From positions 24,992 through 88,991 of the forward strand of contig JAPPEU010000033.1 of assembly GCA_028875245.1 (NCBI GenBank): a stretch of 64,000 bases of DNA, written 5' to 3'. A program made the translations under genes and the position numbers. The notes below the pieces were generated by a model, which saw only the letters and a list, made by a program, of their open reading frames with translations, was not told the DNA's origin and ran no database searches. This document shows, in pieces, positions 3,140-16,435 of the stretch. Source of the DNA: Chloroflexota bacterium (GTDB lineage Bacteria; Chloroflexota; Anaerolineae; Aggregatilineales; Phototrophicaceae). Each line of letters begins with the position of its first letter. Position 1 is the first letter of the stretch.

Positions 3140-4906
3140 CTACAAGCCCGCTTTGTCGAGTTCATCCTGCAGGGCGGGCAGGCGCGCGAACTCCCGCCGC
3201 AAATCAGCAATGAGCCTTTGCCAGCCTGCGCTTTTGTTCATTTGTCGATACATCTCCCGGACCTCTCTCAATAGTTTTGCCGCCTGCGCATAATCCTTCC
3301 TGCTTCTAAGATCAATCTCGGCGCGGGCGTATTTGATGTAGATCGGGATGGCGAGGGCCGGTCGTACATGGCCTGATTTTTCCGCCACAGTGAAGTCGAG
3401 ACGGTAGATCACCTGCGAGGGATGATGATCCTGTCGCTGAGAAACTTTGCCTAAGGCATCCCAGGCCAAATCCCAATCTTCATCATGCAAATAGGCTTCG
3501 GCGAGTACCGCGTAAACCTCTTTCCGTTTGAGTTCGCTGATAACTTTTGGGCGGGTACTCCCCCAGCCCCCGACCGCTTCGGCCGCAGCGCGCAAACCGA
3601 TATAATGGTTGATATGCGGGTCTCTTCGCATCCGATTTAACTGCCAGCGAAATTCCGCTTTTCCATCACCTTGTTTCCGATACAAGTCGATAAGCCAGTC
3701 CGCAATTCGGCTGTCATAGTCGCTTTCCAACGCCGCTTCCGCCAGTTGAATCGCCCTTTGGTTCTGCCGATGCTCGACGAGCAAATCAAGTCCGCGCTGT
3801 AATTCATACGCGGGATGCAATTTCGCTACAACGCCGGCAGCCTCTTCATAACGTTTCAACTCAAGCAGCGCGCTGGCTTGTGAATAATGCAACTCTTTCG
3901 CTTGAAGCCGTTTGAGTGTTTCTTCAGGATCGGTCGAATCAATCTTGTCTAATGCCATCAAAAAATACTCATAAGCCTCGCCAGTCCAATTGCTGTAATA
4001 TTCTTCTTCGCTTTTACGCTCCTCAGCCAAGCGAATGCGCTCACGGATGCGGGGGGTATCAGCCGGCTGCGCGATTTCCAGGATAATCTCATCCGCTTCA
4101 TCCGCATAGCCAATCCCGCCAAAGTCGATATCCCATATCACTGCGCCCGTCAGCAGATCGAGCAGGCCTTGGCGCAAATCTTCATGTTGATCCATATCAA
4201 GATGAGAAAGGGCTTCTTGCAAGCGGGAGACGGTGTTGTTGATCGCCTCAATGTATTGCCCTTCATCATCCGTTGGATAGGCATTGGCGTTGCATTCTTC
4301 GAGAATGGCGCAATAGATGGCAATGGCATGGACGTAATCGCCGCGCCAGGCATAGCGATCGCCCAGGCTGGCGAGTTCGTAGACCTTGTTTTCGGCGACG
4401 CGATCCATCCATTCTCCGCCAAAGTCTAAAGCCGCCTTTAATTCACGGTGAATGGCTGTTAAGTCAATGAGTTGGTTTGGAAAGCCATCGACTGTCGCGT
4501 GTTCAACAATATCTTCAAGATCAGGGTAGCGTACAATCATCGCTTCAATGATGTCAAGCAAATCCCGTTTCTCGCGCGACATGAGTTCATCCCGCAGAGT
4601 CTTGCGCTTCTCAAAATGTTCTGGCTGGCGCAAATACGCGAGCAGCATGGCGACGATATGCTTGCAGTCCCCGCCCCAATCATATTCGCAGCTGCAACTT
4701 GCGGCGGCAATTTCCGCGTCTATGAATTTTGCCCATACTCGATAGGGTTGAGCATAGGATCCTTGGCAGCGCGCGCTGATCTCATCGCCTCGGCGAACGG
4801 GCGAAGAGATAGCGCCATTCTCATAAAGCGTTTTGCCACGGTCAAAACTTTTGCCAACAGTACGCTCTGTAATCTGCTGAAGGTCTAAGCTGATTTCAAC
4901 GGACAC
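3140..4906 (-). CDS. SWIM zinc-finger protein with long helical-repeat (TPR-like) C-terminal region
   Basis: CxC-x7-CxH signature 'CSCEYDWGGDCKHIVAMLL' follows an N-terminal beta region, then ~450 aa of helical repeats. Confidence 0.75.
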   Translation of the reverse strand: MSVEISLDLQQITERTVGKSFDRGKTLYENGAISSPVRRGDEISARCQGSYAQPYRVWAKFIDAEIAAASCSCEYDWGGDCKHIVAMLLAYLRQPEHFEKRKTLRDELMSREKRDLLDIIEAMIVRYPDLEDIVEHATVDGFPNQLIDLTAIHRELKAALDFGGEWMDRVAENKVYELASLGDRYAWRGDYVHAIAIYCAILEECNANAYPTDDEGQYIEAINNTVSRLQEALSHLDMDQHEDLRQGLLDLLTGAVIWDIDFGGIGYADEADEIILEIAQPADTPRIRERIRLAEERKSEEEYYSNWTGEAYEYFLMALDKIDSTDPEETLKRLQAKELHYSQASALLELKRYEEAAGVVAKLHPAYELQRGLDLLVEHRQNQRAIQLAEAALESDYDSRIADWLIDLYRKQGDGKAEFRWQLNRMRRDPHINHYIGLRAAAEAVGGWGSTRPKVISELKRKEVYAVLAEAYLHDEDWDLAWDALGKVSQRQDHHPSQVIYRLDFTVAEKSGHVRPALAIPIYIKYARAEIDLRSRKDYAQAAKLLREVREMYRQMNKSAGWQRLIADLRREFARLPALQDELDKAGL

Positions 4907-8717: not shown

Positions 8718-9530
8718 ATGCAGCAGAATGACAGCTTCCGTCTGGTCGTGCGGCGCGGGCCACAGCCCAACCACGCCTTTGAAATCAGCAAAGATGTCAC
8801 CACGCTGGGGCGCGATATCAGCAACGATATCGTGCTCAACGATCGCGAAACGAGCCGTCATCACCTGCGCCTGATGCTCGCCGGCGATACGCTGACGATT
8901 GAAGATCTCGGCTCGACCAATGGCACCTTCGTCAATGGCAAGCGCGTCTCCGGCGTGACGCCGCTGCAAAATGGCGACATGATCGGCCTGGGCGAGACGG
9001 TGACCCTGGCGCTGGAGAGCGTCAACACGGCGAGCAGCGCGCCGCCGCCCGCCATGGAAGCGCCCGCCCCGCTGCCCGCGCCGCCGGTGGAACCGGCCAT
9101 GCCCGCGCCGGAGCCAAATCTCACGCCGCCGCCCGCCGAATATGGCCTGCAAGGCGCGACGCCCCCACCAGCGGACCCCTATGCGCCAGCCGGCGAAGGT
9201 TTCCCGCCGCAGCAGCCGGCATACCCCGCTTATGCGGAACAGCCGGCCGCGCCAGCGCAGCAGCCCCAATATTATCCGCAGCAGCAAGCGGGTTACCAGA
9301 TGTCGCCGGCGCCGCCGCAAGGTTATCCCGGCTACGATTATGATCCCTACGCCGCGCGCGAGGAAAGCGGCGGCACATCGCCCTGGCTGATTCTCGGCTG
9401 CTTCGTCTTCTTCATTTTGGTCATCGTCTGCTTCGCCGGCATCGCCCTGACCTTGATCGATGTGCTCAATCTCTGGTGCGATCTGCCGGTGGTGCGGGAT
9501 GTCGTGCTGGCGCTCGGGTTTGGTTGTTGA
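8718..9530 (+). CDS. FHA-domain protein with Pro/Gln-rich linker and C-terminal membrane anchor
   Basis: 'TLGRDISNDIVLNDRETSRHHLRL...IEDLGSTNGTFVNGKRV' is a textbook FHA core. It is followed by a PAPxP/QQP low-complexity region and a hydrophobic C-terminus. Confidence 0.85.
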   Translation: MQQNDSFRLVVRRGPQPNHAFEISKDVTTLGRDISNDIVLNDRETSRHHLRLMLAGDTLTIEDLGSTNGTFVNGKRVSGVTPLQNGDMIGLGETVTLALESVNTASSAPPPAMEAPAPLPAPPVEPAMPAPEPNLTPPPAEYGLQGATPPPADPYAPAGEGFPPQQPAYPAYAEQPAAPAQQPQYYPQQQAGYQMSPAPPQGYPGYDYDPYAAREESGGTSPWLILGCFVFFILVIVCFAGIALTLIDVLNLWCDLPVVRDVVLALGFGC

Positions 9531-9600
9531 CAATTCTTGCACCCCCATCCCCGTCAGATTTGGATTTGTAGGGGGGCGCTGAAACGCCCGTTGCGACAGC

Positions 9601-9878
9601 GGTAATGGCGGGTGGGCGAGTCACCGCCTCGCCCCTACGAATTACAATTGTGGCGATAGCGGTAATGGCGGGTGGGCGGGACAAGTCTCGTCCCTACGGA
9701 TTACCAATTGTGGCGAGCGCCGTAATGGCGGGTGGGCGAGACAAGTCTCGTCCCTACGAATTACAATTGTGGCGATAGCGGTAATGGCGGGTGGGCGAGT
9801 CACCGCCTCGCCCCTACGATTACGATTGTGGCGAGCGCCGTAATGGCGGGTGGGCGAGACAAGTCTCGTCCCTACAGA
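9601..9878. repeat. five-unit tandem array of ~60-bp hairpin-containing repeats
   Basis: Units start at 9601, 9661, 9721, 9780 and 9839. Each has GTAATGGCGGGTGGGCGAG-loop-CTCG(C/T)CCCTACGAATTACAATTGTGGCGA. Two loop/tail variants are mixed between units. Confidence 0.85.
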
Positions 9879-9969
9879 TGGTGAAATCGGCCTATATGTA
9901 AACAAATAGTCGCCCTTTGACGCGCGCGGGATGCTAGCCTGCGCGGAGACAAATCGAAGGAGCGACCCA

Positions 9970-11382
9970 ATGTTCAACTGGCTCACCGACTTTTTCCACA
10001 CTCGCCGCGACAAACTGCGCCCGCGCGCGCCCCACATCGAACGGGTGGCGGCGCAAAACCGCTACGCCCTCAATCCGCCGCTCGATATCCACAGCGCCCG
10101 CGTTTACGAAGGCTCGCCCTGGGTCTACGTCGCCATCAACCGCATCGCCGAAGCCGGCGCCCTCGTGCCGCTCAAGGTTTATCGGCTGGCCGGCGAAAAG
10201 CGCATCGGCATTGAGAATCACCCGCTGGAGACGCTGCTGAACGCGCCCAATCCGTTGACCAGCCGTTTCGAGCTTTTCGAGCAGACGATCGGCTCGCTGG
10301 AATTGCAGGGCAACGCTTACTGGTTCCTGGCGGGCGATGAGCGCGGACAGCCGCGCGAGATCTGGCTGCTGCGGCCGGACCGCGTCACGATCGTCCCCCA
10401 TGAGCGGCGCATCGTCGCCGGTTACCTCTATGAGATCAACGGCGAGCGCATCCCGCTGGACGCCCTGGAAGTGCTGCATTTTCGGCGCTGGCATCCGGCG
10501 GACGACTTCTACGGCCTCTCGCCCATCGCGGCGGCGCGCGGCGCAGTGCTCAGCGACCGGCACATGGCCGACTGGAACCGCAACACCTTCGGCCAGGACA
10601 ATGGCGTGCCGGCCGGCATCGTCAATATCAAGGACTTCATCAGCGACACCGACTTCGAGCGGGTCAAGCGCGAATGGCGGGGCAACTATGGCGGCGCGGC
10701 GCGGCGGACCGCTTTCCTGCGCGGCGGCGCCATGGAATGGCAGCACATCGGCTTGAGCCACAGCGATCTCGATTTCCTGCAGGGCCGGCGGGCCCAGCGC
10801 GACGAGATCCTCAACATCTTCGGCATCCCGGTCGGCCTGGTCAGCGAGAACGCCACCGAAGCCAACGCGGTAGTCGCCGAGCGCCAATTCATCGAGCGCA
10901 CGCTCTGGCCCAAGCTGGCGCGCATCGCCCAGAAGATCACGCAGGATTTGCTGCCCTTCTACGGCGCGGACCTGGTCGCCGAATACGATGACATCCGCCC
11001 GACCGACGCCCAAGCGCGCCTGGCAGAGATTCGCACGGCCTACCCGCTGCTGAGCATCAACGAGCTGCGCGCGCAATACTTCCAGCTGCCGCCGGTGGAA
11101 TGGGGCGATGTGGCGGTAAGCCCTCACTCCCCGCTTAACCCCGCTCTAAATCTCCCCCCGACGCATCAGGGGGAGACTTCCGTCGCCAAGTCCGTGCTGG
11201 ACGAGCTGGCGCAGTGGGAGCGGTTCGCGCTGAATCGGCTGGAGCGGGCGGAGCCGGGGAGACCGTTTGAAGTGACGTCGCTGCCGGACGAACTGGCTTT
11301 CGAGGTCAGCGCCGGGCTGCTGTTCGCGCGCGATCGGGAGAGTGTGAAGTCGGTGTTTGCTGGGGTTAGGGCGGGGCTTTAA
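9970..11382 (+). CDS. phage portal protein, HK97 family (orphan)
   Basis: GAAGGAG RBS before the ATG at 9970. The N-terminal 'SPWVYVAINRIAEA...', 'NPLTSRFELFEQTIGSLELQGNAYWF' and 'FGIPVGL' regions are typical of HK97-type portals. Confidence 0.8.
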   Translation: MFNWLTDFFHTRRDKLRPRAPHIERVAAQNRYALNPPLDIHSARVYEGSPWVYVAINRIAEAGALVPLKVYRLAGEKRIGIENHPLETLLNAPNPLTSRFELFEQTIGSLELQGNAYWFLAGDERGQPREIWLLRPDRVTIVPHERRIVAGYLYEINGERIPLDALEVLHFRRWHPADDFYGLSPIAAARGAVLSDRHMADWNRNTFGQDNGVPAGIVNIKDFISDTDFERVKREWRGNYGGAARRTAFLRGGAMEWQHIGLSHSDLDFLQGRRAQRDEILNIFGIPVGLVSENATEANAVVAERQFIERTLWPKLARIAQKITQDLLPFYGADLVAEYDDIRPTDAQARLAEIRTAYPLLSINELRAQYFQLPPVEWGDVAVSPHSPLNPALNLPPTHQGETSVAKSVLDELAQWERFALNRLERAEPGRPFEVTSLPDELAFEVSAGLLFARDRESVKSVFAGVRAGL

Positions 11383-11387
11383 GTTTT

Positions 11388-11433
11388 TTTCACCACAGAG
11401 GACGCTGAGGCAACACAGAGAACACAGAGGGAT
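11388..11433. repeat. octamer-repeat module (TTCACCACAGAGG...CACAGAGGG)
   Basis: Directly follows the portal stop codon. Same family as 15447, 19229, 39942, 43196. Confidence 0.7.
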
Positions 11434-11446
11434 TAAGGTTATGTCG

Positions 11447-11674
11447 TTATGTCTCACATTTGTATTCGCGCTCAATCTGGCGCAGAGCTTCGCGCGCGGG
11501 CATCACATCGCCATTTTTCATCTGAATCAGGCTGACGCGCAAGTCTTCCAGAAACTCGGCTTGCGCTTCGGTAAGCTCCGACGATTCCGACCCGGTCGAC
11601 TCGCGTGTCGTGGGCGCCGATGACCCGTTGGCTCTTATGTGGCGCGGATGCCGGTCTGACTCATTGACTTTCAT
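11447..11674 (-). CDS. small hypothetical protein (75 aa), last gene of the low-GC module
   Basis: ORF begins 12 nt after the XRE-ImmA stop. The C-terminal 'EFLEDLRVSLIQMKNGDVMPAREAL' resembles antitoxin-type helices, but no family could be assigned. Confidence 0.4.
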   Translation of the reverse strand: MKVNESDRHPRHIRANGSSAPTTRESTGSESSELTEAQAEFLEDLRVSLIQMKNGDVMPAREALRQIEREYKCET

Positions 11675-11686
11675 TTCAAGTCTACA

Positions 11687-12793
11687 TCACATCTCTATTG
11701 AAGCGTCTGAGCCACCCCATGTTCCAAACTGAACATCGGCTCCGGGAAACTTGATAACCTTTCGCGGATAATACCACTCGTAGAAATATTTCAGATGCAC
11801 TCTCAACAGCGTTGCCAACTCCTGGTCGCTATAACCAAGTTTTTCCTTGTGAGCGTCGAGTATTCTCTTGACAAGGCTTGGTGTCTCATGCGGTATAGGA
11901 AACGGCTCGTTCTTACGATACCCAAGCCTACTCAACTGCTGAAACAATGACCGATATCTGGTTTCCTTAATGATTTTAAGGTCCTTGGCTCGGAAAATCA
12001 AACATGCCATCGACACCTTCCAATGCGGTTTAAGCTCTAGCATATGCTGCAGCGAAACTGGTGCTAATTCTTCAGAAATGTCGTTCGCCGGCAAAAGGAA
12101 AGCGGAAGCAAACCGGTCAGCTTCTTTTTCCATATTCTTGTAGGGTTCAATGCCACGGTGCATAACCAAATGTCCGAGCGCATGCGCTAGTGAAAACCTT
12201 AGTCGATCTGCCGGACTACTGCTGTTGACAAGGATTATCGGAGGCGCTGGCGGAATCCATTGGACGACCTCATCAATTTTTTCAGTCTCGAAATCCCACT
12301 TGAATACTAGACATGACGCTTGTTCGAGCCAGCCAATTAAGTTGTTTACCGGACCCGTCGGCATTTGCCACAGCGCCCGCACGGTAGAGGCAATCTCTTC
12401 AATATCGTCGAATTCATCAACGGATATGGAGGGTATATACGACGCGGACTCTGGCCTGAATGCCTTTAGTAACTGTTCACTACTAATGCGAAAAAGGTTT
12501 ACCAACCCATCAATTCGTTTGAGATCTCTTGTCCGCACCGTACGACGGCTTCGATGAAATATTTCGCTGGTTCCAGCGCCGTAGCGTGTGCCAACCTGCA
12601 GAAAGAACTCCGGCGGAAATTCCAATACAGCAGCCAAAGATTCAAGGTCGGCCTCGCCAACTTCGGAGACGCCGCCTTCAAATCTGGAAATCTTCGCTTG
12701 TCTAATATCGCTGTTTTCAGCGAGCTTTGACTGTGTCAGCCCTCGGATTTCGCGCGCAAGCGTTATCATCTCTGGGTTGACGCTTTGTCGCAT
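11687..12793 (-). CDS. XRE-family HTH fused to an ImmA/IrrE (M78-like) domain with HEXXH changed to HALGH
   Basis: N-terminal 'LAREIRGLTQSKLAENSDIRQAKISRFEGG' HTH. C-terminal 'FSLAHALGHLVMH' and 'EKEADRFASAFLLP' are characteristic of COG2856/ImmA. Confidence 0.8.
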   Translation of the reverse strand: MRQSVNPEMITLAREIRGLTQSKLAENSDIRQAKISRFEGGVSEVGEADLESLAAVLEFPPEFFLQVGTRYGAGTSEIFHRSRRTVRTRDLKRIDGLVNLFRISSEQLLKAFRPESASYIPSISVDEFDDIEEIASTVRALWQMPTGPVNNLIGWLEQASCLVFKWDFETEKIDEVVQWIPPAPPIILVNSSSPADRLRFSLAHALGHLVMHRGIEPYKNMEKEADRFASAFLLPANDISEELAPVSLQHMLELKPHWKVSMACLIFRAKDLKIIKETRYRSLFQQLSRLGYRKNEPFPIPHETPSLVKRILDAHKEKLGYSDQELATLLRVHLKYFYEWYYPRKVIKFPGADVQFGTWGGSDASIEM

Positions 12794-12805
12794 CGTACGA
12801 CCCTT

Positions 12806-13492
12806 TCAGCTTGAGTCCTTGTAAGAATCCTCCTCAGCATCATTATATGTTGGTTTGATAGGAGGTACAGGGGGAAGTGACTCGAAGTTATCCGTTGCAT
12901 CTGACGCAGGTGGTACTTGCAGAGTTAGCTTCGCAATGATTCGCTGATCGTCTTGTTCAATCAAATGCAAGGCAATTATTAGACCCTCTAATTTCTCGTA
13001 GTACAAGCCATAGTGGCGCTGGTGACTAAGAGGCGGTTCAAGTGAAAAGATTTTCGGCTCAATCTCCGCAATAGACAGTGCAAGTTGTATATGGCTAGCC
13101 GTCTGAGATGGAAAATCGCTAGTGCCTGCTCGTTTTGAGCGTTTTATGGTTTCGGGCGCGGGCAGAGGCGAGTTGTCGCGACCAATTCCCTCTTCCGGAA
13201 AGTGCCTGATATAAAGGCTGATTATATCGTCAAGTATGACGCGCAGGATTTTTCTCGGGCCCGACTTGACTCTCGCGCTGCTGGAAACCGCAAATTGTAT
13301 ACGCAAGCCGTCGGTGAAGAACACTCTGCAATAGTTTCCTTGATGCCACGCGTCTCTGTGGTCATGTGTATTGGGGTCAGCACTGCGGTCTTCAGTGATC
13401 TTCCCATTTGCATATATCGCTGCCAGAATCAAGTCAGGCCCGATCCGCGCGGCGATTAGTTGCATTTCTTTGTTCGGCGGTATTTCTGACAT
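12806..13492 (-). CDS. hypothetical protein (228 aa), no recognisable domain
   Basis: GAGG RBS before the ATG at 13492 (track ORF extends to 13522). It stops 12 nt before the XRE-ImmA start. Low GC. AT-rich promoter-like region upstream. Confidence 0.55.
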   Translation of the reverse strand: MSEIPPNKEMQLIAARIGPDLILAAIYANGKITEDRSADPNTHDHRDAWHQGNYCRVFFTDGLRIQFAVSSSARVKSGPRKILRVILDDIISLYIRHFPEEGIGRDNSPLPAPETIKRSKRAGTSDFPSQTASHIQLALSIAEIEPKIFSLEPPLSHQRHYGLYYEKLEGLIIALHLIEQDDQRIIAKLTLQVPPASDATDNFESLPPVPPIKPTYNDAEEDSYKDSS

Positions 13493-13665
13493 ATCGCTTA
13501 CCTCTGGCCGTCCTAGTTCCAAGAAACTCTATCCGAAATTGTCAATAAATGATAATAAATTACTCACGAGCTTATATTTCCTCGATTATGCTGCAATTTA
13601 TCCTTGAGAGCAAGTGTAACATTCTCTGGCACCTGTGTCAAGCGAAGGGAATCCAGATTACCCCA

Positions 13666-15393
13666 TCAAATCAAATCCCGCTGACTCTCCCCATCCTCAC
13701 TAACGCTACCCCCCTTCCACCTACTTGCCCGCTGATGCGTCCCATGCTGCGGCGGCATCGCCACGCCCGCGCCGTCGAACAGATCCCCAATCGTCAAGAT
13801 CTGGGTGCGCCGATACTTCTTCCCCCAAGTCCGCGACTCGTACCAGCCGGCCGCCAGCGCCTCTTTGATCATCGCCTGCGTCGGCCGCTCCAGCGTGATG
13901 AAGACGCCGATAGCCGCCCCCTCGCGCTCGACCGTGCCTTTCAAGTCGCGGATTTGCCCCGCATTCACTTTACCCGACTTGACCTGCAGGACCACCTTCC
14001 GCGCTTTCTTCACCCCCTTCTCGTCTTCATCGAAGAAGTTGATGACGCCGTCGATGCCTTGGTCCGCGCCTTTCTTGCCTTTGCGCGAGCCCGCCGAGCC
14101 GCCCACCGGTTTCGCTTGCAGCAGCGAAAGCGCCCACCATTCGAATTGGTAGCGGCCTTCGTTGGCGGAATCCCGCGCCAGTTCGCGCGCGCCTTCCACC
14201 GTCGCTGGCTCGCCGATGACCGCGTAATCGACGCCCGAGACCAGCTCGAACATATCGGCCAGGCGATACTTCTGCAGGGCGATGGACAGGTGGGTGATGT
14301 CGATGCCGATCCAGGCCCGTCCCAGCTTGTGCGCCGCGGCGATGGCGGTGCCACAGCCACAGAAGGGATCAAGGACGACATCGTCTTCGTCCGACGAGGC
14401 GCGGATGATGCGCTCGAGCAGGGCTTCGGGTTTCTGCGTCGGGTAGCCGAGGCGCTCTTTGGCGTGTGGCGACAAGCGGTCAATATCGGTCCATAGATTC
14501 TGTACTGGAACGCCGGGCATTTCATGCAGATATTGCTTGAAGTGAGGTACGCTACCCTTTGGAGGCCAATAGATGTAGCCGTTTTCGTCCAGCAAGTCCA
14601 GCCGTTCCGCCACAGACCAAGACAGCGCTTCTTCGCCCCCTAATTGACGGATTATTCGCTTTGGTACACTCCAGCTTCGACCGCTTGTAGTCGGGCTATA
14701 ACCGCGCCATGTGGAACCGGAATCGCCAAGGCTGATTTTAGGTCCTGTCAGAGTTACCGCACGATAGCGTCCACGATCATCCTCGTATCGAAAGAACTTG
14801 CGAATATATTCCTCAGAATACTCTGTGTATTGAGTATTCCACAGGAAATCATCATTTTTGCTGTAGAACAAAATCGTGTCTGTGATTCGCCCATATCGCA
14901 TAGGGTCATTGTGCGCATAAGTACGCTTCCAAATCACCTCGTTGCGGTAATTCGACCCGCCGAAAATCGTGTCCAAAATGATCTTGAGATAATGGCTGGC
15001 GGTCGGATCGCAGTGCAGATACAAGCTCCCGGTCGGCTTCAAGACCCGATACAGCTCGACCAGCCGCGCCGTCATCATCACCAGGTAGGCCATCATCTGG
15101 TTGCGCTCGATCAGGTTCATCAGCGCTTCGATGGCGGTGGCGACCTTGTGCGGCGCGTCCACGATGATGTCGTCATAGGTCGCTTCGGCCGTCTCGCCCC
15201 AATGCCAGGTGTCCTCGAAGGCGGTGATCTGCGCTTCGCTGTCGGCGCCGCTTTCCGATTTGAAAAGCACGTTGTAATTGCGGTTGCTGTTGAAGGGCGG
15301 GTCAAGGTAGATGAGGTCGACGCATTCGTCCGGGAAGTACTCACGGCTGCGCAGGATTTCCAGGTTGTCGCCGTAATAAAGCCGGTTCTTCAT
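13666..15393 (-). CDS. beta-class N6/N4 DNA methyltransferase fused to a C-terminal Mrr-like (PD-(D/E)xK) nuclease-fold domain
   Basis: 'IYLDPPFNSN' (motif IV) is N-terminal and 'VLDPFCGCGTA' (motif I) is later. The C-terminal 'GADQGIDGVI...VVLQVKSGK' resembles the Mrr catalytic core. Confidence 0.85.
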   Translation of the reverse strand: MKNRLYYGDNLEILRSREYFPDECVDLIYLDPPFNSNRNYNVLFKSESGADSEAQITAFEDTWHWGETAEATYDDIIVDAPHKVATAIEALMNLIERNQMMAYLVMMTARLVELYRVLKPTGSLYLHCDPTASHYLKIILDTIFGGSNYRNEVIWKRTYAHNDPMRYGRITDTILFYSKNDDFLWNTQYTEYSEEYIRKFFRYEDDRGRYRAVTLTGPKISLGDSGSTWRGYSPTTSGRSWSVPKRIIRQLGGEEALSWSVAERLDLLDENGYIYWPPKGSVPHFKQYLHEMPGVPVQNLWTDIDRLSPHAKERLGYPTQKPEALLERIIRASSDEDDVVLDPFCGCGTAIAAAHKLGRAWIGIDITHLSIALQKYRLADMFELVSGVDYAVIGEPATVEGARELARDSANEGRYQFEWWALSLLQAKPVGGSAGSRKGKKGADQGIDGVINFFDEDEKGVKKARKVVLQVKSGKVNAGQIRDLKGTVEREGAAIGVFITLERPTQAMIKEALAAGWYESRTWGKKYRRTQILTIGDLFDGAGVAMPPQHGTHQRASRWKGGSVSEDGESQRDLI

Positions 15394-15446
15394 GGGCGTA
15401 TCTCTTTAGCCAAGCCAGTGTCGCCAGTATAGCATAGCGACAGCCC

Positions 15447-15477
15447 CTCTCTGTGCCCTCTGTGCCTCTGTGGTGAA
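15447..15477. repeat. octamer-repeat module CTCTGTGCCCTCTGTGCCTCTGTGGTGAA
   Basis: Identical core to 19229..19259 and 39942..39972. Confidence 0.75.
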
Positions 15478-15586
15478 AAATCAAATCAGATTCCACCCAT
15501 GCGCCCCACACTCTACAGCATCGCCAATTCCGCGACCATCGGTTAGAATCTGCGCGTCCGGCAAGTCATCGTTTACTACGACAAAC

Positions 15587-16435
15587 ATGGATTTAGACAT
15601 GTCCATCAACTACAACCTAAAGCGCCAACATCTCGACCGCGACGGCTTCTGCCTGCTCGAAGGCATCATCGACGAGACCATGCTGGAGCGGCTGCGGCGG
15701 GTCACCGACCGGGCGATTGCGCGGCAGGAGGCGGCTCATTTTGAGCGCAATCGCGCCCAGGGCAGCCTGATTCGCGTCACCGAAGAGCCATACATGGCGC
15801 GGCTCATCGCTTATCCGCCGATGCTGGCGGCGCTGGCGCGGCTCGGTTTCCCCGATCCCAAATGGGGCAGCGGCTTCATCATCAGCAAACCGCCGCATAG
15901 CCCGCCTCTCTTCTGGCATCAGGACGCGCGCTTTTGGAACGACCCCATCAGTTACACCGCGCGCGCGATTCAGTGCTTTCTGATGATCTATCTGGTGGAT
16001 ACGACGCCGCATAACGGCTGTCTGCGGCTGATCCCCGGCTCGCATTTGAAGCGTCACCGGCTGCATGACGCCCTGCCCGACGCGCATGAGGAGACGCTGA
16101 GCCGCGCTGATGATATGGCGCAGTTGGCTTTTCAGCGGGCCGAGGGCGAGGTTGATGTGCCGGTGAAGGCGGGCGATGTGGTCATGGGCAGCGCGCGGCT
16201 GCTGCATGCGGCGCATGGCAACCAGAGCGATCGGCGCCGCAGCAATATCACGCTCTGGTATTATCCCGATTTCGCCAGTCTGCCCGAATCGATACAAGCC
16301 TATCTGGCGGAGGGAGACTGGCCCGCCGAGTGGCAGGCGGGAAATCAGGACTTGCTCGAGCCCCTGCGGCCTGTGTACGCGGGTGATGCCGAGCCGATCA
16401 CGCTTAATCGGAAGCCGGGACCCGAGCTGCGTTAA
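15587..16435 (+). CDS. phytanoyl-CoA dioxygenase (PhyH) family Fe(II)/2-oxoglutarate oxygenase
   Basis: 'FWHQDARFW', 'RLIPGSH' and 'LLHAAHGN' form an H-x-D...H facial-triad pattern. Confidence 0.8.
   Translation: MDLDMSINYNLKRQHLDRDGFCLLEGIIDETMLERLRRVTDRAIARQEAAHFERNRAQGSLIRVTEEPYMARLIAYPPMLAALARLGFPDPKWGSGFIISKPPHSPPLFWHQDARFWNDPISYTARAIQCFLMIYLVDTTPHNGCLRLIPGSHLKRHRLHDALPDAHEETLSRADDMAQLAFQRAEGEVDVPVKAGDVVMGSARLLHAAHGNQSDRRRSNITLWYYPDFASLPESIQAYLAEGDWPAEWQAGNQDLLEPLRPVYAGDAEPITLNRKPGPELR

What the first reader, a model, noticed from the sequence alone, without database searches (positions are those of the whole stretch)
11447..15393. Low-GC module beside the orphan portal: small protein, XRE-ImmA pseudo-protease, unknown 228-aa protein, and a methyltransferase fused to an Mrr-like nuclease domain
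All four genes are on the minus strand.
- The three downstream genes are separated by only 12 nt each (13492->12806, 12793->11687, 11674->11447). They are visibly AT-richer than the surroundings.
- They are preceded by an AT-rich promoter-like spacer (13523..13665).
- The 228-aa protein has no motif I can recognise. It occupies the slot that in XRE/COG2856-linked modules is normally taken by a toxin or effector.
- The upstream methyltransferase carries its own PD-(D/E)xK-like domain ('GIDGVI...LQVKSGK').
- The module lies convergent to a lone phage portal gene.

This looks like a phage-derived or anti-phage island whose effector is undescribed. It is the best candidate in the window for a novel defence or abortive-infection-type system.
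Basis: partly seen in the sequence, partly recalled or inferred. Interest (0 to 1): 0.72.

Follow-up and report, generated by a model that had tools for sequence, protein, structure and literature searches.

The report
RosmerTA-like toxin–antitoxin pair in defence hotspot
The low-GC genes are a two-gene, toxin–antitoxin-type candidate anti-phage module of the known RosmerTA kind, with an undescribed partner protein and a regulator whose protease site is dead, sitting in a variable defence slot that many related Chloroflexota keep between a domesticated phage portal gene and a DNA methyltransferase.

Summary
In detail: four minus-strand genes, 12-nt spacers, GC 0.48 against 0.65 in the flanks, and a near-consensus promoter.

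The four genes are not one system.

- **Core pair.** The 228-aa protein (X) lies directly upstream of the 368-aa XRE-HTH/M78 protein. That protein matches PADLOC RmrA at 8e-65. X sits directly upstream of such an RmrA in all 17 loci with readable context, usually behind TTGACA-N17-TAnnnT. Two of those loci are in unrelated genomic contexts.
- **X.** It matches no Pfam, PADLOC (which lists RmrA models and would be expected to hold RmrT models), NCBIfam, PHROG or PDB entry. It evolves fast but under purifying selection.
- **RmrA.** It has HALGH in place of HExxH, as do 77 of its 120 closest homologues. This is a clade that has lost the catalytic glutamate.
- **75-aa gene.** It is an orphan antitoxin-like remnant of a neighbouring HigB-2/RelE-type pair.
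- **Methyltransferase–Mrr gene and portal.** Both are conserved flanks. A portal-anchored scan found 71 species-level Chloroflexota genomes with the portal (dN/dS about 0.2, host-like GC). About 27 also have the methyltransferase. The 0.8–3.5 kb low-GC gap between them carries alternative defence cargo: OLD, FRG, TIR, CapH/CapP-like and GHKL proteins.

Verdict: a new variant of RosmerTA in a lineage-specific defence hotspot. Toxicity and anti-phage activity are inferred, not shown.

The parts
13613..13641 (-). Sigma-70-type promoter of the X-RmrA operon (TTGACA-17-TACACT).
   Evidence: Found in the scan. The same -35/-10 pair is aligned in orthologous loci. TTGACA-like-N16-18-TAnnnT lies 47-150 nt upstream of X in 15 of 16 loci.
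12806..13492 (-). X: 228-aa RmrT-like partner, the presumed toxin/effector, from a new fast-evolving family.
   Evidence: - No hit in Pfam, PADLOC, NCBIfam or PHROGs, nor in a PDB profile search or Foldseek.
- The family is small: 9 clusters at 50% identity among 1.84 billion proteins.
- X is always directly upstream of RmrA.
- dN/dS is 0.09-0.32.
11687..12793 (-). RmrA-like protein: N-terminal XRE HTH plus an M78 (ImmA/IrrE) domain with HALGH instead of HExxH. Presumed antitoxin, autorepressor and sensor.
   Evidence: - PADLOC RmrA 8e-65; Pfam Peptidase_M78 3.9e-17 and HTH_31/HTH_3; phrog_2439 4e-81.
- HALGH is invariant in orthologues and present in 77 of the 120 closest homologues.
- dN/dS is 0.03-0.14.
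11447..11674 (-). 75-aa orphan antitoxin-like gene. It is a neighbour, not part of the pair.
   Evidence: - Homologues sit next to the portal in at least 26 species. In at least 16 of them a 110-aa protein follows.
- A profile of that 110-aa protein matches HigB-2 at 3e-4 in the PDB. The closest relatives match TIGR02385 RelE/StbE at 3.8e-4.
- No such toxin gene remains in the window.
13666..15393 (-). Beta-class N6-adenine-type DNA methyltransferase fused to a C-terminal Mrr-like PD-(D/E)xK domain. It is the conserved right-hand flank of the cargo slot.
   Evidence: - Pfam N6_N4_Mtase 1e-43 and Mrr_cat 2.4e-9.
- DPPF, FCGCGT and D448...Q470-V-K472 are invariant in 25 orthologues.
- It is present in about 27 of 71 portal loci with differing cargo.
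- Decayed remnants occur in L001 and L092.
9970..11382 (+). Lone HK97-type portal gene. It is the conserved left-hand flank of the cargo slot.
   Evidence: - Pfam Phage_portal 7.7e-65 and TIGR01537 1.2e-38.
- 71 species-level genomes carry a homologue at 58-89% identity, most with M23->FHA->portal synteny.
- dN/dS is 0.19-0.25 and GC is 0.63-0.66.

Best explanation
**What it is.** Genes 12806-13492 (X) and 11687-12793 (RmrA-like) form an autonomous, horizontally exchanged, two-gene RosmerTA-type toxin–antitoxin / abortive-infection module. It is transcribed from its own strong promoter.

**Proposed mechanism**
- The HTH of RmrA represses the operon promoter.
- The rest of RmrA holds X inactive by direct binding.
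- The catalytic glutamate of HExxH is Ala throughout this clade. The M78 domain therefore cannot act as a protease. It most likely serves as a (still metal-binding) ligand- or protein-binding sensor and neutralising domain.
- A phage cue, or loss of labile RmrA after host shut-off, releases X. X then arrests or kills the infected cell.

**Setting.** The pair is one of many alternative cargoes in a low-GC variable slot. An order-level group of Chloroflexota keeps this slot between a domesticated portal gene and a methyltransferase–Mrr gene. The 75-aa gene is an unrelated orphan antitoxin remnant.

**Shown.** Gene linkage, promoter conservation, RmrA family membership, loss of the catalytic Glu, purifying selection, hotspot structure.

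**Inferred.** Toxicity of X, neutralisation by RmrA, autoregulation, the trigger, anti-phage activity.
For: - **RmrA membership.** PADLOC RmrA 8e-65; 14 RmrA models hit.
- **Published definition.** RosmerTA is an unknown or diverse toxin plus an HTH/Zn-peptidase antitoxin. Delta-rmrA was not transformable, and a phage Kita system was validated.
- **Linkage.** X lies directly upstream of RmrA in 17 of 17 loci with context. Two of these (L090, L091) are in unrelated, non-portal contexts.
- **Operon structure.** The X-A gap is -4 to +50 nt, and a promoter is present in 15 of 16 loci.
- **Real genes.** Both are under purifying selection.
- **Exchange.** The pair's dS is saturated while the flanks' dS is 0.6-0.9. 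Low GC persists in every genome. Both fit exchange of alleles at a hotspot.
- **Alternative cargo is defence-like.** OLD/AriA/GajA-like, FRG/PDC-S15, CapH/CapP-like, TIR-WD40 and GHKL proteins.
- **Phage parallels.** Phage RmrA homologues are each preceded by a 204-251 aa unknown protein.
- **Dead motif.** HALGH is invariant in orthologues, with the E-x-E-A-D-x-F-A ligand motif kept.
Against: - No experiment exists. X matches no PADLOC model of any kind, so a rule that requires both an RmrA and an RmrT hit would not call this locus.
- X has only two invariant residues (R56, Y165) across 23 sequences and no recognisable fold. Its activity is therefore unknown, and it may not be toxic at all.
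- The dead HExxH motif removes the mechanism usually assumed for ImmA-type partners.
- No inverted-repeat operator was found in the promoter region.
- Remote homology of X to phage RmrA partners is unproven (hhalign probability 48%).
Confidence: 0.6

Rival explanations
1. A four-gene (or three-gene) system. The methyltransferase–Mrr fusion, X, RmrA and the 75-aa protein would work together. For example, it could be a restriction-modification-like system in which X is the nuclease and RmrA the controller.
For: - The methyltransferase is adjacent to X-RmrA in the window, L013, L020 and L027.
- Methyltransferase remnants lie upstream of X in L001, L092 and L054.
- X starts about 170 nt after the methyltransferase stop codon.
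Against: - The same methyltransferase flanks unrelated cargo (FRG, OLD, CapH/CapP-like, TIR and others) in about 20 species.
- X-RmrA occurs without it in L012, L014, L018, L052, L063, L090 and L091. A restriction enzyme without its methylase would be lethal.
- The methyltransferase diverges like the flanks (dS 0.82), whereas the pair's dS is saturated.
- X has no conserved acidic residues.
- The 75-aa gene tracks the portal and a HigB-2-like toxin, not X-RmrA.
Confidence: 0.08
2. A leftover lysogeny or immunity switch of the decayed prophage that also left the portal. RmrA would be a CI-like repressor fused to its ImmA-type anti-repressor. X would be a regulatory partner, with no toxin or defence role.
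For: - Phage homologues sit beside the integrase (Howe gp34-36) or are annotated as cI-like (phiCD418).
- ImmA/ImmR and IrrE/DdrO are regulatory pairs (PMC10440598; PMC6868357).
- The pair lies beside a phage-derived gene.
Against: - No operon remains for it to regulate. The portal is convergent and has host-like GC. In L090 and L091 the called neighbours carry no phage-family Pfam hits.
- The pair's composition and divergence differ from the portal's.
- The catalytic Glu needed for an ImmA-type switch is lost across the clade.
- The slot holds interchangeable defence genes in sister species.
Confidence: 0.17
3. A plain addiction toxin–antitoxin pair that stabilises the island, or simply persists selfishly, with no anti-phage function.
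For: The anatomy is the same as in the best explanation. Many chromosomal toxin–antitoxin pairs show no phage phenotype, and tested RosmerTA homologues can be inactive or very narrow in range.
Against: It sits in a slot enriched for recognised defence genes. Published RosmerTA systems do defend.
Confidence: 0.15

Closest known systems
RosmerTA (RmrT/RmrA; Millman et al. 2022; Ernits et al. 2023).
   Same: - A two-gene operon in which an unknown-function partner is followed by a fused XRE-HTH/M78 peptidase protein that matches RmrA HMMs strongly.
- Partners are diverse and unrelated between systems.
- It occurs in phages and in defence islands.
   Different: - X matches no PADLOC model.
- The HExxH catalytic Glu is Ala throughout this clade, whereas the three phage homologues translated (Howe, ABMM1, prophiGD44-1) have HELGH and more distant cellular ones have HE[ILV]GH.
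- X is soluble with no predicted membrane segment, unlike the membrane-depolarising Kita RmrT.
- Toxicity and defence are untested.
ImmA/ImmR, IrrE/DdrO and CapP/CapH (COG2856 protease plus XRE repressor pairs).
   Same: The domain pair is the same: XRE HTH and M78. CapP is the best solved-structure relative (7t5t, E 0.003; PADLOC capP 3e-16). A CapH/CapP-like pair is an alternative cargo in the same slot (L026, L050, L070).
   Different: Here the two domains are fused, the catalytic Glu is missing, and a third protein (X) is the obligatory partner.
P2-like prophage defence hotspot between gpA and the portal gpQ (Rousset et al. 2022, PMC9122126).
   Same: A variable slot with interchangeable anti-phage cargo lies directly beside a portal gene.
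   Different: No prophage remains here. The portal is a lone, vertically inherited chromosomal gene, and the other flank is a methyltransferase–Mrr gene.
HigB-2/HigA-2 and RelBE type II toxin–antitoxin pairs (for the 75-aa gene).
   Same: In sister genomes a small antitoxin-like gene overlaps a 110-aa HigB-2/RelE-like gene.
   Different: The toxin gene is deleted in the window. The 75-aa protein itself matches no family model.

Membership tests
RosmerTA | Antitoxin RmrA: a fused N-terminal XRE HTH plus M78 Zn-peptidase domain that matches RmrA profiles. | tested here: met
   PADLOC RmrA 7.9e-65, 14 models, near full length. Pfam HTH_31/HTH_3 and Peptidase_M78.
RosmerTA | The partner matches a described RmrT toxin profile. 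| tested here: not met
   There is no PADLOC hit of any kind at E <= 0.1-1. This holds for X, for 11 further family members, and for 6 more distant members.
RosmerTA | The two genes are adjacent, co-oriented and co-transcribed, and their linkage is conserved. | tested here: met
   17 of 17 loci. The gap is -4 to +50 nt, with a shared upstream promoter.
RosmerTA | The partner is toxic and RmrA neutralises it; the system protects against phage. | not testable with these tools
   This needs expression and phage-challenge experiments.
ImmA/IrrE (M78, COG2856) metalloproteases | HExxH zinc-binding and catalytic motif with the general-base Glu. | tested here: not met
   The motif is H204-A-L-G-H208. 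It is invariant in orthologues and is HAxxH in 77 of 120 closest homologues. The downstream E-x-E-A-D-x-F-A motif is retained.
ImmA/IrrE (M78, COG2856) metalloproteases | Domain homology to Peptidase_M78. | tested here: met
   PF06114 3.9e-17, covering 2-122 of 123 profile positions.
Type II restriction-modification system | An active methyltransferase plus a cognate endonuclease that depends on it. | tested here: inconclusive
   Methyltransferase motifs are intact and conserved. No cognate endonuclease was identified. X occurs without any called gene carrying a methyltransferase Pfam hit within 5 kb in L090 and L091, which argues against X being that endonuclease. The role of the fused Mrr-like domain is unknown.
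HigBA/RelBE type II toxin–antitoxin pair (75-aa gene) | A cognate RelE-fold toxin gene next to the antitoxin. | tested here: not met
   The toxin is present in at least 16 sister genomes but absent from the window. Only 64 nt separate the 75-aa gene from the portal stop, and tblastn finds nothing.
Functional phage head module or prophage | The portal is accompanied by terminase, protease and capsid genes. | tested here: not met
   - No TerL or capsid homologue is found anywhere in the 64-kb window.
- The neighbours are host genes.
- A TerL-portal-...-capsid arrangement survives only in distant L079.

The most novel reading that the evidence does not exclude
The lone portal may not be an inert scar. 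It could be a working part of the locus, kept under purifying selection across an order-level Chloroflexota clade. In that case it would serve as bait, sensor or anchor for whichever defence cargo occupies the adjacent slot.

In parallel, the catalytically dead M78 domain of RmrA could be a pseudo-enzyme receptor that recognises a phage protein instead of cleaving a repressor.

Either reading would be a new principle: a domesticated virion protein, or a dead protease, used as an immune sensor.
Probability: 0.12. Interest if true: 0.8.

Novelty: new variant of a known kind. Interest (0 to 1): 0.45.

Why it matters
- **A new RosmerTA partner family.** It adds an uncharacterised partner (toxin) family to RosmerTA. 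Current defence-finding HMM sets cannot see it.
- **A natural experiment on mechanism.** It identifies a large natural clade of RmrA proteins that lack the catalytic glutamate. If these pairs are active, RosmerTA neutralisation and sensing cannot depend on proteolysis. That would constrain the still-unknown mechanism of the whole family.
- **A new place to look for immune genes.** It defines a portal-anchored defence hotspot in Aggregatilineales/Phototrophicaceae-type Chloroflexota. This is a practical place to mine new immune genes in a poorly studied phylum.
- **An example of long-term retention.** It is an example of a phage portal gene kept by its host under purifying selection.

Tried and rejected
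**Searches that found nothing**
- Pattern scans for X relatives in genome contigs, metagenome contigs and viral contigs, and tblastn of X against phages, all found nothing. Relatives came only from the protein databases and from a local HMM run on portal-anchored loci.
- Inverted-repeat search for an operator in four promoter regions: none.
- Rfam on 9000-16000: nothing.

**Structure and remote homology of X**
- AlphaFold2 on X with 5 sequences was unusable (pLDDT 36.8).
- With 10 sequences it was mediocre (pLDDT 56.5, pTM 0.58).
- Foldseek against the PDB gave no match below E 0.17. A PDB profile search gave nothing.
- Profile comparison of X with phage RmrA partners: probability 48%, not accepted as homology.
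- X as a restriction endonuclease: rejected. It has no conserved acidic residues and occurs without a methyltransferase.

**Other checks**
- RmrA profile against the PDB: only HipB-type HTH hits. The M78 segment alone gave mostly spurious alphaRep matches, plus CapP at 0.003 and IrrE at 0.65.
- The idea that the methyltransferase's C-terminal tail was captured from the inserted module: rejected. The ...GESQRDLI tail is native in 20 of the 25 orthologues and is replaced by a shorter, related ending in the rest.
- The idea that the 75-aa gene is a split-off YjzC tail of RmrA: rejected. L027 has both a 414-aa RmrA and a separate 75-aa homologue.


Full report
**1.
- Four minus-strand ORFs lie at 13666-15393 (575 aa), 12806-13492 (228 aa), 11687-12793 (368 aa) and 11447-11674 (75 aa). 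Two 12-nt spacers separate the last three.
- GC falls to 0.46-0.52 across 11400-13800, against 0.62-0.67 on both sides.
- Per gene, X is 0.486 and the 368-aa gene 0.483. The portal is 0.656 and the methyltransferase 0.581.
- The spacer upstream of the 228-aa gene contains TTGACA-17-TACACT at 13641-13613.
- By Pfam, the 368-aa protein is XRE HTH plus Peptidase_M78. The 575-aa protein is N6_N4_Mtase plus Mrr_cat/NA-iREase1. The convergent gene is a Phage_portal of the HK97 type. The 228-aa and 75-aa proteins hit nothing in Pfam, PADLOC, NCBIfam or PHROGs.

**2. The 368-aa protein is an RmrA.**
- It matches 14 PADLOC RmrA models. The best is 7.9e-65, over almost its whole length. It also matches phrog_2439 at 4e-81.
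- RosmerTA was described as a toxin of unknown function plus an antitoxin with a Zn-peptidase. Delta-rmrA could not be transformed (10.1101/2022.05.11.491447).
- Ernits et al. describe diverse RmrT toxins paired with the ImmA-domain RmrA, often with an N-terminal HTH. They validated a system from Gordonia phage Kita (PMC10440598).

**3. The 228-aa protein (X) is its obligatory partner.**
- X belongs to a very small family. There are 5 clusters at 90% identity among 5.8 billion, 9 representatives among 1.84 billion, and 10 clusters with a profile search.
- Every member whose context could be read sits directly upstream of a 361-414 aa RmrA homologue. These are L001-L006, L011-L014 and L092.
- A local HMM found still more divergent X genes upstream of RmrA in all six GTDB species that have an RmrA in the portal locus.
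- It also found X upstream of RmrA in two 6-Mb genomes where the pair lies in unrelated contexts without a portal (L090, L091).
- That makes 17 of 17 loci. The X-RmrA gap is -4 to +50 nt. A TTGACA-like-N16-18-TAnnnT promoter lies 47-150 nt upstream of X in 15 of 16 loci (alignment).
- Both genes are under purifying selection: X dN/dS 0.09-0.32 and RmrA 0.03-0.14.

**4. What X is remains open.**
- None of 12 members hits PADLOC or Pfam at E <= 1, and six further distant members hit nothing in PADLOC.
- A PDB profile search is empty.
- AlphaFold2 with 10 sequences gives a mediocre model (pLDDT 56.5, pTM 0.58). It has two long N-terminal helices, a six-stranded sheet, a disordered insert (98-155) and a disordered Pro-rich/acidic tail (199-228).
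- Foldseek against the PDB finds nothing below E 0.17.
- Across 23 sequences only R56 and Y165 are invariant, with N29 nearly so. This does not look like a classical acid-base hydrolase.
- Phage RmrA homologues are each preceded by a 204-251 aa unknown protein. Examples are Howe gp34, ABMM1_31, prophiGD44-1 gp29, Tritos_41, R24.2 and phiCD418.
- Those partners are mutually diverse and unrecognised by PADLOC. A profile-profile comparison with X gives only 48% probability. I do not accept this as homology.

**5. The 'pseudo-protease' call is right, and it applies to the whole clade.**
- The motif is H204-A-L-G-H208. It is invariant in orthologues at 67% identity.
- Among the 120 closest homologues, 77 have HAxxH and 5 have H[MTLV]xxH. 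The 32 with canonical HE[ILV]GH are the more distant ones, at or below about 47% identity.
- The three phage homologues I translated (Howe, ABMM1, prophiGD44-1) all have HELGH.
- The two His and the downstream E-x-E-A-D-x-F-A motif are kept, so metal binding may survive. The general base is gone, however.
- The domain is nevertheless strongly conserved. From this I infer a binding or sensing role rather than proteolysis.

**6. The other two genes are neighbours, not components.**

*75-aa gene*
- Homologues lie right next to the portal in at least 26 species. In at least 16 of them a 110-aa gene follows, overlapping it.
- A profile of that 110-aa gene matches Vibrio HigB-2 (E 3e-4). Its relatives match RelE/StbE (TIGR02385, 3.8e-4).
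- The window has no such toxin. The 75-aa gene is therefore an orphan antitoxin-like remnant.
- It is absent after RmrA in L005, where the portal follows directly.

*Methyltransferase–Mrr gene*
- It is intact, with DPPF, FCGCGT and D...QVK invariant in 25 orthologues.
- It diverges like the flanks: 72% identity and dS 0.82 between the window and L013.
- It lies next to quite different cargo in other species.
- It is missing or decayed in many X-RmrA loci.

**7. The setting is a lineage-specific defence hotspot.**
- A portal-anchored scan of one genome per GTDB species returned 71 Chloroflexota genomes. They are labelled Aggregatilineales, Phototrophicaceae or Anaerolineae MAGs, and carry a portal at 58-89% identity.
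- About 58 of these share the M23->FHA->portal synteny seen in the window.
- The portal has host-like GC (0.63-0.66). Its dN/dS is 0.19-0.25, like the adjacent FHA gene. It is therefore vertically inherited and maintained.
- Where the methyltransferase is present (about 27 species), the portal-to-methyltransferase gap is 0.8-3.5 kb at GC 0.42-0.53. Its content varies:
  - X-RmrA;
  - FRG/PDC-S15;
  - an OLD/AriA/GajA-like ATPase-TOPRIM protein;
  - CapH/CapP-like HTH plus M78 pairs;
  - TIR-WD40 and TIR-YjzC proteins;
  - a GHKL ATPase;
  - a proteasome-like protein.
- The X-RmrA pair is more diverged between genomes than its flanks. RmrA is 60% identical with saturated dS, while the portal is 75-80% identical with dS 0.6-0.9. 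This fits allele exchange at a fixed site rather than simple co-descent.
- A published parallel is the P2 hotspot between gpA and the portal gpQ (PMC9122126).
- More distant genomes still have terminase and capsid genes near the portal (L079), and TerL homologues lie near the portal in L083, L074, L075 and L066. None occurs in the window. This points to an ancient prophage origin.

**8. Mechanism, with its status.**
- *Shown:* operon anatomy, conserved promoter, RmrA membership, dead catalytic motif, selection, mobility, hotspot.
- *Inferred from the RosmerTA literature and from type II toxin–antitoxin logic:*
  - X is the toxin or effector;
  - RmrA binds and neutralises it and represses the promoter through its HTH;
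  - a phage cue sensed by the dead M78 domain, or loss of RmrA, frees X.
- *A hint of physical coupling:* X variants paired with 414-aa, YjzC-extended RmrA lack the Pro-rich/acidic tail.
- I put 0.6 on this model.
- The rivals are a residual lysogeny switch (0.17), a purely selfish toxin–antitoxin pair (0.15) and a four-gene system including the methyltransferase (0.08).

**9. Verdict.**
It is, however, a variant of a known system, not a new kind, and it has two genes, not four.
- The novel elements are the X family, the RmrA clade that lacks the catalytic glutamate, and the portal-anchored hotspot.
- Interest is 0.45.

Noticed in passing
window 9593-9875: A 60-bp tandem repeat (4.8 copies, 85% matches) lies between the FHA gene and the portal. 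Each unit carries a GGGCGAGAC-AAG-TCTCGTCCC hairpin. The motif occurs nowhere else in the window, and there is no Rfam match.
   Followed up: partly
window 9970-11382; L016-L086: The 'orphan' portal is conserved in 71 species-level Chloroflexota genomes. It has dN/dS about 0.2 and host-like GC, mostly in M23->FHA->portal synteny. It looks like a domesticated phage gene of unknown cellular role.
   Followed up: partly
L079 6413-14621; L083 12021-13238; L074; L075; L066: In more distant relatives the portal still sits with a large terminase and a capsid gene, with a TIR-HEAT gene and a transporter gene inserted between them. TerL homologues survive near the portal in a few other genomes.
   Followed up: partly
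P0018, P0023-P0038; L020, L027, L054, L063; L056 10356-11525; L066 10442-11236: About 15 of the listed close RmrA homologues (414-420 aa) carry a Pfam YjzC (PF14168) hit; from the unchanged position of HALGH I infer it is a C-terminal extension. The longer of the two TIR proteins in the same hotspot slot (L056) clustered with these RmrAs, perhaps through a shared YjzC-like part. The X partners of YjzC-extended RmrAs lack the Pro-rich/acidic tail.
   Followed up: no
L022 9833-10742; L061 9662-10532; L037 9703-10573: A 185-199 aa protein with a weak SocA/Panacea-like N-terminus ends in a segment resembling the 75-aa protein. It precedes a HigB-2/RelE-like gene. This suggests that the 75-aa-type domain is a portable neutralising module.
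   Followed up: no
window 17836-~23900 (minus strand): Four tandem paralogues of an approximately 435-aa ADP-ribosylglycohydrolase-family gene lie a few kb beyond the methyltransferase. A 471-aa unknown gene and a PhyH dioxygenase gene sit in between.
   Followed up: no
L001 7134-7853; L092 ~3990-4300; L031, L033, L039, L047, L054, L055, L065: The methyltransferase–Mrr gene is decaying independently in several lineages, leaving 36-160 aa remnants. Its last 31 nt (...GESQRDLI*) persist as a conserved boundary just upstream of the cargo promoter.
   Followed up: partly
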